Assembly (NCBI GenBank): GCA_012799415.1
Contig: JAAZLH010000161.1
Location: 217-64,216 of the forward strand
Origin: Candidatus Epulonipiscium sp.
GTDB lineage: Bacteria > Bacillota > Clostridia > Lachnospirales > JAAYNZ01
Direction of reading: 5' to 3'
DNA: 64,000 bases
Shown: positions 44,929 through 46,788 of the stretch, one piece after another
Numbering within the stretch: the first letter of the stretch is position 1
Layout of the letters: every line of letters starts with the position of its first letter
Translations under genes and position numbers: made by a program
Notes under the pieces: generated by a model
Databases searched by the model: none
What the model was told of the DNA's origin: nothing
The model's input: only the letters and a program-made list of their open reading frames with translations

Positions 44929-46788
44929 TTACCTTGCGGCGATAACATTGGCCCGAAGAAGCACTTGTCCTTGGTAGCGATAGCCTGTATTGATACATTT
45001 AATAATGTCTCCTTTTTGGAACCCTTCTTGTTCTTCTGCTAAAAGTACTTCCTGTTCTTTTCCATTAAATTTTTCATACGGCTCCGGCCTAATAAAACTG
45101 ATACCATAAGCTTCTAAAGCATCATATAATTTTTGGGTAAGATCATCCATTCCCTTGACATAGTGAATAATTTTTTCATCTGGTTCTTCACGAATCCTTG
45201 AAATAGAATAGTATAGAATTTCTTCGAAAGTGCTGATTTCAAATAAAAGATGGTTTTTCAGCTGGTTTTTCAGTACTTTATCCCATTGATGCTCTTGGCC
45301 CTCTACCCAACTTTCCCACTGTTCTTGTGCATCTTTTGTCACGCCCATATCCCAATCATTCTCAAGTAATCGAGCCAAAATTGAAACTAAATTTGAAGAT
45401 TCCTCTGTATACACTTCTTCTAATTGAATCCATTGATTATATAAAGTTAGCATATTCAATTTTTCTTCATAGGGAGGCAAGTTTTTTTCGTAGATTTTTT
45501 TTATATTTACTGCCCACTGTTCTTGCTGTTCTTGAATACTCTGTATCTTAATCTCTAGCGTTTCATCAATCCCTATAAAAATATCTTTATATTGTGTTGC
45601 AACTAATTCTTCCTTTTGTTCCTGGTATAATCTTTGAAACTCTTGAAAAGAAGTTATGATTTGCCTAACCATTTGCTCGTAAGCTTTTTCTTCCTTCTCT
45701 TTCTCTTTTATCCATTGCCTTTTTTCCTCTTGCAACCATGTGGAAAATAAAGCATCATATTCTTCTATTACAATATTTAATAAACTTTTAAAAGTTTCTA
45801 TCCCCTCATAAAATTCATGCCAATGTTCTAGAACTCTATCTTCAGTAATACTCTGAATATCCTTTACATATTTTTCAATGCCTTCTTCTTGAATATATTT
45901 GTAAAAATCATCTTGATTTAAAATCTTTTTATTTAATTCCATTCCATTTTTAAAGCCTTGTTCCCATGCTGCGTTTTTTTCTTTCATTTGTATATATAAG
46001 CCGTTTAAAAGTCCAACCAGATCTTCTAGATCTTGCTGAACTGTACAGATAGACTCCAATGTGTTTTTTTGGTTTTGCGCAAATTCATAATATTGATGTA
46101 ACATAGGTCTTTTATTAAAATCATCAATCTGTTGCATCCCTGCAAGGGATACCTCTTGATACAAGTTATAGATATCTTGTTTTTTATGTTCCCAAATACA
46201 TTGGTACCACTGTTCTACTTGCTGTTGATAGATTTCTCTTATCTGGTCCTGTTGTAACCATGATTTTTGATATTGCTTTATATCTGCCTTATGGATTATT
46301 ATATCTTTTATAAACTCTTCTTCTATTTTTTTAAGCCCTGCAACAAGGTTTTGCTTCGTATGAGAAATATATTTTTCTTTTTCTAATAAAATAGGATTTA
46401 TACCTATAGGACCCTCTTCATAGAATTGCTGATATTGTGAAAGTAGAATGCTAAAAATTCCTTCTATCCTATCTCCTATTTCTGAGTCCTCATTATCCTT
46501 TTGTCTCTCTTGGTAGGTTTTTATGATTTGTCTATACTCTTGCATCCACTGTTCAAGAAGCAAAAAGATTTCTGCATCATGACGTGCTAAACGATGGTCT
46601 TGATGTAAATGTTGCAAGGTTTTGATCATTATTTTGACACGAATACTGAAAAAACAACTTTTTATTTCTTGTTCCATTGTTTGATGAAAAGCCTGATTTG
46701 CTTTTATCCAGGCTTCCATCATATTTTTTACTTCTTGTTGATTGGCAAGCCAAATAGGAATATTGGGCTTGGCCCTTGTATTAGCCAT
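44929..46788 (-). CDS. Long Q/E-rich coiled-coil protein with a C-terminal GrpE-like domain
   Basis: 619 aa. The last ~70 aa (LYDALEAYGISFIRPEPYEKFNGKEQEVLLAEEQEGFQKGDIIKCINTGYRYQGQVLLRANVIAAR) follow the GrpE beta-domain pattern G...I...G..FdP..HeA......v......GY...g.vlRpA.V.V. Confidence 0.6.
   Translation of the reverse strand: MANTRAKPNIPIWLANQQEVKNMMEAWIKANQAFHQTMEQEIKSCFFSIRVKIMIKTLQHLHQDHRLARHDAEIFLLLEQWMQEYRQIIKTYQERQKDNEDSEIGDRIEGIFSILLSQYQQFYEEGPIGINPILLEKEKYISHTKQNLVAGLKKIEEEFIKDIIIHKADIKQYQKSWLQQDQIREIYQQQVEQWYQCIWEHKKQDIYNLYQEVSLAGMQQIDDFNKRPMLHQYYEFAQNQKNTLESICTVQQDLEDLVGLLNGLYIQMKEKNAAWEQGFKNGMELNKKILNQDDFYKYIQEEGIEKYVKDIQSITEDRVLEHWHEFYEGIETFKSLLNIVIEEYDALFSTWLQEEKRQWIKEKEKEEKAYEQMVRQIITSFQEFQRLYQEQKEELVATQYKDIFIGIDETLEIKIQSIQEQQEQWAVNIKKIYEKNLPPYEEKLNMLTLYNQWIQLEEVYTEESSNLVSILARLLENDWDMGVTKDAQEQWESWVEGQEHQWDKVLKNQLKNHLLFEISTFEEILYYSISRIREEPDEKIIHYVKGMDDLTQKLYDALEAYGISFIRPEPYEKFNGKEQEVLLAEEQEGFQKGDIIKCINTGYRYQGQVLLRANVIAAR

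What the first reader, a model, noticed from the sequence alone, without database searches (positions are those of the whole stretch)
44929..46788. GrpE-like nucleotide-exchange domain appended to a ~550-aa Q/E-rich coiled coil, embedded between Hsp70 genes
The last ~70 residues of the 619-aa protein follow the GrpE C-terminal beta-domain pattern (GISFIRPEPYEKFNGKEQEVLL...GDIIKCINTGYRYQGQVLLRANVIAAR, compared with GrpE G.e.i...G..FDP..HEA....GY...gRvlRpA.V.V). The preceding ~550 residues are helical and heptad-rich (many Q, E, K, W), far longer than the ~100-aa helix of canonical GrpE (about 180-210 aa in total). The gene sits between Hsp70 genes with gaps of 13-20 nt.

Inference: this is a specialised exchange factor whose giant coiled coil could act as a spacer, a thermosensor (as the GrpE long helix does) or a scaffold that docks the other operon products.
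Basis: partly seen in the sequence, partly recalled or inferred. Interest (0 to 1): 0.6.

Follow-up and report, generated by a model that had tools for sequence, protein, structure and literature searches.

The report
Giant GrpE inside multi-Hsp70 operon
This gene encodes a GrpE-type "recharging factor" for Hsp70 chaperones that is three times the normal size, and it is a fixed part of a conserved, unstudied operon of four shortened Hsp70 copies in one order of anaerobic Clostridia.

Summary
The 619-aa product of 44929-46788 (minus strand) ends in a real GrpE module. Pfam GrpE scores 46.3 bits against a cut-off of 25.8. A family profile matches canonical GrpEs at 94% probability over about residues 480-619. 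In a confident AlphaFold model (pLDDT 91.9), the 11 best PDB fold matches are all GrpE chains.

The homology covers stalk helix, short helix and beta-wing, about 140 residues rather than 70. The preceding ~480 residues are all-helical and match no known family or fold. They form about 14 helices with short loops and only a patchy heptad signal, so they are not one continuous coiled coil.

The genome also keeps a normal hrcA-grpE-dnaK operon, so this is a second, very divergent paralogue.

The gene order DUF5717N–DUF5717–Hsp70–longGrpE–deadHsp70–Hsp70–Hsp70-vWA–TPR recurs wherever the contig allows in the 80 related loci. It is present in 34 of 61 genomes of the same order and in 0 of 299 other genomes of the class. 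Trimmed versions that lack the three active Hsp70s also lack the GrpE.

Best reading: a dedicated exchange factor for the operon's lidless Hsp70s, with a fast-evolving helical N-terminal add-on of unknown role. This is a new variant of a known kind. Activity is untested.

The parts
44929..46788 (-). Whole gene: 619-aa 'long GrpE' (operon gene D)
   Evidence: ORF. Full-length relatives of 550-650 aa: 369 representatives at E<=1e-3. Single ORF in the 80 related loci, cut only at contig ends.
46795..46800 (-). Ribosome-binding site AGGAGG, 7 nt before the ATG
   Evidence: Read directly from the sequence.
45613..46788 (-). Residues 1-392: helical N-terminal extension specific to the long form
   Evidence: Predicted all-helical at high pLDDT. 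No Pfam, PDB-sequence or PDB-fold match. No counterpart is aligned in the 279-aa orthologue, which aligns only to residues ~393-619. Fastest-evolving segment of the operon: mean p-distance 0.78, measured over residues 1-480. Conserved motifs include NPIxxEK (131-137) and LNDLxxR...Y.ELL (220-236).
45343..45612 (-). Residues 393-482: family-specific helical segment with the GIxETxxIKIESL motif (406-417), shared by long and short forms
   Evidence: Conservation peak at residues 401-420. G406, I413 and K414 are invariant in 70 sequences. Aligned to the short orthologue at 99.4% probability.
44932..45342 (-). Residues 483-619: complete GrpE module. Stalk helix 483-532 carries LLFEISTFEEIL (514-525). 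Short helix is 538-560 and beta-wing 563-618.
   Evidence: Pfam GrpE. hhalign against canonical GrpEs: 94%, E 1.1e-7. Profile against PDB: 4ANI 4.5e-5, 1DKG 3.3e-3. Foldseek top 11 hits are all GrpE. Secondary structure.
44932..45102 (-). It ends in the near-invariant RANVIAA[RK] at the very C-terminus.
   Evidence: Six strands in the model. Most conserved part of the protein, conservation 0.66-0.75. Alignment A3.
46809..48485 (-). Gene C: lidless, motif-intact Hsp70 (558 aa) directly upstream
   Evidence: Pfam HSP70 3.7e-77, ending at profile position 494 of 599. Matches DnaK residues 2-499 only. Motifs read.
43341..44915 (-). Gene E: Hsp70-like protein with degenerate ATPase motifs and a DUF5716_C region, directly downstream
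   Evidence: Pfam DUF5716_C 5.8e-26 and HSP70 2.1e-17. DIGNQTS replaces DLGTTNS. Start at 44915 inferred from the RBS.
41704..43344 (-). Gene F: lidless, motif-intact Hsp70 (546 aa)
39624..41702 (-). Gene G: lidless Hsp70 fused to a vWA domain
   Evidence: Pfam HSP70 5.1e-96 plus VWA families.
48501..52465 (-). Genes A (418 aa, DUF5717_N) and B (903 aa, DUF5717_N plus DUF5717 plus TPR): the first two genes of the operon
   Evidence: Synteny.
37209..39590 (-).
   Evidence: TPR families for H. The hydrophobic stretches of I were read from the translation; no topology prediction was run. H is conserved in the loci. I was detected in the closest relatives, in L082, and in the variant loci L083 and L085.

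Best explanation
The gene encodes a dedicated GrpE-type nucleotide-exchange factor for the lidless Hsp70 paralogues of its own operon. It is not the housekeeping GrpE.

**Shown**
- The last ~140 residues are a complete, very divergent GrpE module: stalk helix, short helix and beta-wing.
- A ~90-residue family-specific helical segment with the GIxET motif precedes the module. In the long form, a further ~390-residue helical extension precedes that segment.

**Inferred**
- As in DnaK-GrpE, the module dimerises through its stalk and short helix. One beta-wing wedges between lobes IB and IIB of an Hsp70 ATPase domain, releases ADP and resets the chaperone.
- The partners are one or more of the three motif-intact Hsp70s (genes C, F and G).
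- The N-terminal helical region is a folded bundle-like add-on rather than a single coiled coil. It tethers or positions the exchange factor within the multi-protein assembly, and it may take over contacts that normal GrpE makes with the Hsp70 lid, which these Hsp70s lack.
For: **GrpE homology and fold**
- Pfam 46.3 bits against a cut-off of 25.8.
- 69 of 70 family members hit GrpE.
- hhalign against canonical GrpEs: 94%, E 1.1e-7.
- Profile against PDB GrpEs: 4.5e-5.
- AF2 pLDDT 91.9; the 11 best Foldseek PDB matches are all GrpE chains at probability 1.0.

**A second copy, not the housekeeping one**
- hrcA-grpE(193 aa)-dnaK lies on another contig.
- All 31 related genomes searched have a canonical GrpE.
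- In a tree, operon GrpEs and canonical GrpEs separate at 100/100 support across a very long branch.

**Link to the operon**
- Gene order A-B-C-D-E-F-G-H recurs across the 80 loci wherever the contig allows.
- Genes are tightly spaced and the gene has its own RBS.
- The long GrpE occurs in 34 of 61 genomes of the order. The operon's DUF5717 occurs in 36 of 61, in almost the same genomes.
- The three loci that keep only DUF5717/DUF5716 (two of them also TPR) have lost Hsp70s C, F and G and also lack the GrpE.

**Partners look able to cycle ATP**
- C, F and G keep the DxGTTNS, DxGGGTxD and GGS motifs. E does not.
- C, F and G are the slowest-evolving genes, p-distance 0.23-0.24.

**Loop known in E. 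coli DnaK to bind GrpE**
- From my own knowledge, the loop around residues 28-34 of E. coli DnaK is needed for GrpE binding.
- Its counterpart differs in C, F and G from the genome's own DnaK (read). This fits a private partner.
Against: - No biochemical or expression data exist.
- Two E. coli GrpE contact residues are not kept, on my reading of the alignments. R183 aligns with a variable residue (Q608 here). P151 of the FDP motif aligns with a small residue, mostly Gly, sometimes Ala (G576 here). The identity of these contact residues is recalled from memory. The genome's own canonical GrpE also has Q at the R183 position.
- The conserved Arg of RANVIAA is offset by one position from the canonical R186.
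- The rate-covariation test found no specific Hsp70 partner for the GrpE module itself.
- A 279-aa orthologue shows that the long extension is not needed for the operon layout.
- Dimerisation could not be modelled.
Confidence: 0.62

Rival explanations
1. The GrpE module is kept only as an Hsp70-binding handle. The protein would be a structural adaptor that pins one or more Hsp70 ATPase domains to the assembly, perhaps holding them open or nucleotide-free, without acting as a turnover-accelerating exchange factor.
For: - Some canonical DnaK-contact positions are changed, and the family has its own invariant set: E585, G593, A613, N614 and RANVIAA.
- About 480 extra structured residues carry conserved motifs.
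- The operon holds other scaffold-type proteins: TPR, DUF5717 and vWA.
Against: - Binding of a GrpE beta-wing between the lobes opens the nucleotide cleft by itself, so binding and exchange are hard to separate (established GrpE mechanism; review PMC12987570).
- The beta-wing is the most conserved part of the protein.
- The gene is found only together with the motif-intact Hsp70s.
Confidence: 0.2
2. It is an alternative general GrpE for housekeeping DnaK, for example a stress- or stage-specific isoform. Its place in this operon would be incidental.
For: - Public annotation calls the homologues 'nucleotide exchange factor GrpE'.
- The fold is GrpE.
Against: - The position between the same Hsp70 paralogues recurs across the 80 loci.
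- It is lost together with those paralogues.
- It is extremely divergent from the canonical clade.
- The family profile found only 369 proteins in 1.8 billion, far fewer than the number of canonical GrpEs one would expect there, so it does not pick them up in bulk.
- Every genome examined keeps a canonical grpE next to dnaK.
Confidence: 0.06
3. One reading: the N-terminal ~550 residues form one long dimeric coiled coil that serves as a rigid spacer or thermosensor in front of a small beta-domain.
For: - The region is entirely helical and rich in Q, E and K.
- It contains a 73-residue helix (324-396) with the strongest heptad signal.
- The canonical GrpE stalk is a known thermosensor (review PMC12987570).
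Against: - The model has about 14 helices separated by short loops, with pTM 0.78 for a monomer.
- Only 16% of windows show an above-chance heptad pattern.
- Conserved motifs sit at helix ends and loops.
- GrpE homology already accounts for residues ~480-560.
- I could not inspect the model's coordinates, so the packing is inferred.
Confidence: 0.1

Closest known systems
Canonical bacterial GrpE (E. coli GrpE in 1DKG; Geobacillus kaustophilus GrpE in 4ANI) and mitochondrial GrpEL1 (9BLS/9BLT)
   Same: - Same stalk helix, short helix and beta-wing fold; these are the best PDB matches.
- Pfam PF01025 above the cut-off.
- Encoded next to Hsp70 genes.
   Different: - Three times longer: the usual 40-50 disordered N-terminal residues are replaced by ~480 structured helical residues.
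- Separated from canonical GrpEs of the same genomes by a very long branch.
- The FDPxxHxA motif is FNGKEHEV here, and the R183 position is not conserved.
- The neighbouring Hsp70s lack the helical lid that GrpEL1's second beta-wing face contacts.
- No J-protein is encoded in the operon.
Hsp70-GrpE theme of the GAP1-N2 GTPase conflict systems (Kaur, Burroughs, Iyer and Aravind, eLife 2020, PMC7159879)
   Same: A non-housekeeping Hsp70 with its own GrpE, and sometimes an extra truncated Hsp70 and TPR proteins, in Firmicutes and Actinobacteria.
   Different: - Those systems are built around a GAP1-N2 GTPase and FNIII or DnaJ proteins.
- No GTPase, FNIII or J domain was found in the nine proteins here.
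- The DUF5716/DUF5717 partners do not appear in the Hsp70/GrpE passages of that paper that I read. A full-text search for those two names returned only one unrelated paper.
DUF5717/DUF5716 three- or four-gene operon of Lachnospiraceae (Pfam PF18984, PF18983, PF18980)
   Same: Homologous scaffold (DUF5717), dead Hsp70 (DUF5716_C), TPR protein and the 383-aa homologue of gene I.
   Different: That minimal version has no active Hsp70 and no GrpE. The window carries the extended version.

Membership tests
GrpE (Pfam PF01025) nucleotide-exchange factor family | Significant match to the family profile above the curated cut-off | tested here: met
   46.3 bits against 25.8, E 4.8e-12, profile positions 83-162 of 165. 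In relatives the match reaches profile positions 8-162. 69 of 70 family members match.
GrpE (Pfam PF01025) nucleotide-exchange factor family | Fold: long stalk helix, short helix, C-terminal beta-wing | tested here: met
   AF2 model with pLDDT 91.9: helices 483-532 and 538-560, then six strands at 563-618. The 11 best Foldseek PDB matches are all GrpE, probability 1.0, TM 0.41-0.59 on the target.
GrpE (Pfam PF01025) nucleotide-exchange factor family | Conserved Hsp70-contact residues of E. coli GrpE (for example P151 and R183; recalled from memory, not checked in a paper) | tested here: inconclusive
   From the alignments: P151 aligns with G576 and R183 with a variable position (Q608). Hydrophobic positions such as M174 are kept as I/M. 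The genome's own canonical GrpE also has Q at the R183 position.
GrpE (Pfam PF01025) nucleotide-exchange factor family | Size of about 170-220 aa with a short disordered N-terminus | tested here: not met
   619 aa, with about 480 structured helical residues before the GrpE module. One orthologue is 279 aa.
GrpE (Pfam PF01025) nucleotide-exchange factor family | Homodimer through the stalk and short helix | not testable with these tools
GrpE (Pfam PF01025) nucleotide-exchange factor family | Accelerates ADP release from an Hsp70 | not testable with these tools
   Needs biochemistry.
Housekeeping GrpE of the hrcA-grpE-dnaK-dnaJ operon | Encoded in the heat-shock operon next to dnaK; one per genome | tested here: not met
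   The housekeeping copy (193 aa) lies elsewhere, on contig C329, between hrcA and dnaK. This gene sits in the DUF5717 operon.
Extended DUF5717/DUF5716 multi-Hsp70 operon (unnamed) | Gene order DUF5717N-DUF5717-Hsp70-GrpE-deadHsp70-Hsp70-Hsp70vWA-TPR | tested here: met
   Same order in the window and in the related loci wherever the contig allows.

The most novel reading that the evidence does not exclude
The giant GrpE would be the organising hub of a J-protein-independent, multi-Hsp70 machine. Its GrpE module would reset the three lidless Hsp70 motors. Its family-specific helical domain would bind them, most likely Hsp70s C and F, whose divergence it tracks. That domain would then replace functions normally supplied by the Hsp70 lid or a J-protein, coupling nucleotide exchange to client handover on the DUF5717 scaffold. 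This would be a new mode of Hsp70 regulation in bacteria.
Probability: 0.15. Interest if true: 0.8.

Novelty: new variant of a known kind. Interest (0 to 1): 0.55.

Why it matters
Bacterial Hsp70 biology is built on DnaK-DnaJ-GrpE, with HscA and HscC as side branches. A 2025 review of GrpE-like factors (PMC12987570) states that a single Hsp70 system suffices in bacteria for general proteostasis. In the passages I searched, it mentions no bacterial GrpE paralogue or large N-terminal domain.

Here an ancient, divergent GrpE paralogue carries a ~480-residue domain of unknown fold. It is locked into an operon with three active and one dead lidless Hsp70 and no J-protein, and that operon is spread across many families of one Clostridial order.

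If the protein is an active exchange factor, it gives a natural case of an orthogonal Hsp70/NEF pair in one cell. It also offers a handle for finding what this unstudied machine does: the protein could be used to pull down its partners. A cultured carrier exists, Defluviitalea phaphyphila Alg1.

Tried and rejected
- **Internal duplication of GrpE helices in the N-terminal region.** Pairwise BLAST hinted at DDFNKR (222-227) against the canonical DNFRKR motif. The profile-profile comparison gave 0.3% probability, so I rejected it.
- **Known fold or family for the N-terminal region.** Pfam on 70 members found nothing recurrent. PDB sequence and profile searches gave only weak, composition-like matches to helical bundles. 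Foldseek found nothing below E 0.1 apart from GrpE.
- **Anti-phage defence system.** PADLOC gave only weak generic Hsp70/TPR hits.
- **GAP1-N2 GTPase system.** There is no GTPase in the operon.
- **First AF2 run with 4 sequences.** It was poor (pLDDT 56.6) and was superseded by the 70-sequence run.
- **Rate covariation to find the Hsp70 partner of the GrpE module.** No specific partner emerged. Only the N-terminal part tracks Hsp70s C and F, on 24 non-independent operons with near-saturated distances, so this is weak evidence.
- **Foreign-island origin.** GC content and skew are uniform across the window.
- **Expression data.** The exact-protein contig look-up found nothing.
- **Literature.** Searches for DUF5716/DUF5717, lidless Hsp70 with GrpE in Clostridia, and atypical or GrpE-like proteins found no description of this protein or operon.
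Full report
**1. What is at the coordinates**

The minus strand of 44929-46788 holds one 619-codon ORF. AGGAGG lies 7 nt before its ATG and the stop is TAA. It is the fourth of nine co-directional, tightly spaced genes running from 52465 to 37209:

| Gene | Size | Identity |
|---|---|---|
| A | 418 aa | DUF5717_N |
| B | 903 aa | DUF5717_N, DUF5717, TPR |
| C | 558 aa | Hsp70 |
| D | 619 aa | this gene |
| E | ~524-535 aa | Hsp70-like with DUF5716_C |
| F | 546 aa | Hsp70 |
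| G | ~692 aa | Hsp70 fused to vWA |
| H | 391 aa | TPR |
| I | 396 aa | no family; hydrophobic stretches flanked by charged helical sequence |

No J domain was found in any of the nine proteins. Base composition is uniform across the window, so nothing marks the cluster as foreign.

**2. The GrpE claim**

- Pfam GrpE (PF01025) matches residues 536-616 at 46.3 bits. The curated cut-off is 25.8 and E is 4.8e-12.
- A profile of the C-terminal 130 residues from 34 relatives finds the solved GrpEs: 4ANI at 4.5e-5, 1DKG at 3.3e-3, and human GrpEL1 more weakly.
- A 70-sequence family profile was compared with a profile of 29 canonical GrpEs from related genomes. The result was 94% probability and E 1.1e-7. 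The well-aligned block runs from about residue 480 to 619 against GrpE positions 67-193.
- With the 70-sequence alignment, AlphaFold2 gave a confident model: pLDDT 91.9 and pTM 0.78. Its helices include 483-532 and 538-560, followed by six strands at 563-618.
- Foldseek against the PDB returned GrpE chains as its 11 best matches: 9A81, 9BLS/9BLT GrpEL1, 4ANI, 1DKG and 3A6M. All have probability 1.0, E between 2e-4 and 2.5e-2, and 156-190 aligned columns, which is close to the whole GrpE chain.

So the GrpE-homologous part is a full module of stalk, short helix and beta-wing. It spans about 140 residues, not only the last 70. The modelled sequence is the cluster representative and differs from the window's protein at 2 of 619 positions.

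**3. The N-terminal region**

- It is helical throughout in the model. About 14 helices of 12-73 residues are separated by short loops.
- It is rich in E, Q, I, K and W.
- No Pfam family recurs in 70 members apart from GrpE.
- PDB sequence and profile searches give only weak, composition-like matches.
- Foldseek finds nothing below E 0.1 outside GrpE.
- In a crude heptad test, only 16% of 28-residue windows lie above the 95th percentile of shuffles. These concentrate at residues 313-397 and 241-277.
- The family keeps specific motifs that are not heptad filler:
  - NPIxxEK at 131-137.
  - LNDLxxR...YxELL at 220-236.
  - GIxETxxIKIESL at 406-417.

I read this as a folded, bundle-like helical domain rather than one long coiled coil. 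I could not inspect the model's coordinates, so the packing is inferred. A hint of an internal GrpE-helix duplication did not survive the profile comparison, which gave 0.3% probability.

**4. A second, divergent paralogue**

- The genome also has a standard hrcA-grpE(193 aa)-dnaK operon on another contig.
- All 31 related genomes searched have a canonical GrpE. Those with the operon have this second GrpE-domain ORF in addition.
- In a maximum-likelihood tree of the last 150 residues, 29 canonical GrpEs and 36 operon GrpEs separate at 100/100 support. The branch between them is very long.
- The family profile found only 369 proteins at E<=1e-3 among 1.8 billion representatives, mostly 550-650 aa and matched end to end. 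This is far fewer than the canonical GrpEs one would expect there, so the profile does not pick them up in bulk.

**5. Conservation and distribution**

- A scan of one genome per species returned 80 loci. They come from Candidatus Epulonipiscium MAGs, Defluviitalea phaphyphila Alg1 (cultured), many termite-gut Defluviitaleaceae MAGs and other Eubacteriales or Clostridiales MAGs.
- Wherever the contig allows, the order A-B-C-D-E-F-G-H is the same.
- In whole-genome searches the long GrpE occurs in 34 of 61 genomes of the same order (31 of 55 genera). It occurs in none of the other 299 scored genomes drawn evenly from the class.
- DUF5717 occurs in 36 of 61 genomes, almost the same set.

The exceptions are informative:

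| Locus | Genes kept | GrpE |
|---|---|---|
| L084 (family f2) | fused DUF5717, DUF5716 dead Hsp70, TPR (short contig) | absent |
| L085 (family f2) | fused DUF5717, DUF5716 dead Hsp70, TPR, homologue of gene I | absent |
| L086 (another lineage) | A, B, E | absent |
| L083 (genome G305) | full nine-gene operon | present, 279 aa |

In the first three loci the active Hsp70s C, F and G are also absent.

The 279-aa GrpE of L083 matches Pfam GrpE over profile positions 30-164 of 165. It aligns to residues ~393-619 of the long form at 99.4% probability, including the GIxET motif.

Two points follow:
- The GrpE travels with the ATPase-competent Hsp70s, not with the dead one.
- The first ~390 residues are an elaboration that the operon can do without.

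**6. The likely partners**

- C, F and G keep the phosphate-1, phosphate-2 and adenosine motifs. E has lost them.
- All four end shortly after the beta-sandwich substrate domain. The Pfam HSP70 matches stop at profile positions 474-504 of 599, and C matches DnaK residues 2-499 only. They therefore lack the helical lid.
- Across 24 complete operons, mean p-distances fall into three groups:
  - Slowest: the three active Hsp70s at 0.23-0.24.
  - Intermediate: the GrpE module at 0.54, E at 0.62, H at 0.66, A at 0.69 and B at 0.73.
  - Fastest: the N-terminal part of D at 0.78.
- Pairwise-distance correlations group the N-terminal part of D with C and F (Spearman 0.78 and 0.77; partial 0.54 and 0.49). 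The GrpE module shows no specific partner. This is exploratory: the pairs are not independent and the distances are near saturation.

**7. Mechanism**

- **Established.** GrpE dimers wedge one beta-wing and the partner's short helix between Hsp70 lobes IB and IIB to release ADP. The stalk contacts the interdomain linker. In human GrpEL1 the second wing contacts the lid (review PMC12987570).
- **Inferred here.** The C-terminal module does the same for one or more of C, F and G. The family-specific helical segment and the long extension position the factor in the assembly. They may compensate for the missing lid contact.
- **Points against a fully canonical interface.** P151 aligns with G576, and the R183 position is variable. 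The conserved Arg of the terminal RANVIAA motif is offset by one position from the canonical R186. The identity of the E. coli contact residues is from my own memory. The genome's own canonical GrpE also lacks the R183 arginine, so this is weak evidence.

**8. Comparison with what is known**

- The domain is already recognised by automatic annotation: homologues are labelled 'nucleotide exchange factor GrpE'.
- I found no paper on the protein or the operon. A search for DUF5716/DUF5717 returned only one unrelated hit. Three further searches found nothing relevant.
- The nearest published theme is the Hsp70-GrpE association of GAP1-N2 GTPase systems (PMC7159879). Those systems have a GTPase and FNIII or J-domain proteins that are absent here.
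- Earlier notes of this scan on other genomes describe the same operon and the trimmed Lachnospiraceae version. They agree with what I derived independently.

**9. Verdict**

- The 'specialised exchange factor' reading is supported by homology, fold, synteny and phyletic pattern, but it is not tested biochemically.
- The 'giant coiled coil' description is only partly right.
- It is a new variant of a known kind: a GrpE paralogue with a large uncatalogued helical domain, embedded in an undescribed, J-less multi-Hsp70 operon.

Noticed in passing
L084:222-5339 and L085:6138-12960: Two genomes of family f2 carry a trimmed operon. L085 has a fused 1231-aa DUF5717 protein, a ~410-aa DUF5716 dead Hsp70, a short TPR protein and a 383-aa homologue of gene I. 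L084 is a short contig and shows the first three (its DUF5717 protein is 1032 aa). Neither has an active Hsp70 or a GrpE.
   Followed up: partly
L083:9514-10353: One genome (G305) has the full nine-gene operon but a GrpE of only 279 aa. It corresponds to residues ~393-619 of the long form, and in the tree it is sister to all long forms with weak support.
   Followed up: yes
L010:1455-2924 and 18 other loci: In 19 related loci a further conserved ORF lies on the same strand, a median of 11 nt upstream of the detected start of the operon. It has a median length of 439 aa and no Pfam family. The window has no such gene: a divergent aminotransferase follows gene A instead.
   Followed up: partly
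window 52673-53773: A class I/II aminotransferase is transcribed divergently from the operon. Homologues occupy the same upstream position in about 12 related loci, which is probably plain synteny.
   Followed up: partly
window 44915-44948 and 41702-41786: The longest-ORF starts of genes E (ATG 44948) and G (TTG 41786) overlap the preceding genes. ATG 44915 follows a purine-rich AGAGGGG. ATG 41702 (MAYLGIDLGTTNS) lines up with the usual Hsp70 N-terminus; I did not read its upstream sequence. These look like the real starts.
   Followed up: partly
window 56716-60243: A 1175-aa protein has a CspB prodomain and four matched stretches of the subtilase family (Csp-type spore germination protease). 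It suggests a spore-forming organism. No link to the operon was seen.
   Followed up: no
window 37209-52465 (24 related operons): Evolutionary rates within the operon differ sharply. The three active Hsp70s are highly constrained (mean p-distance 0.23-0.24). The scaffolds, the dead Hsp70, the TPR protein and the N-terminal part of the GrpE are three times more divergent (0.62-0.78).
   Followed up: partly
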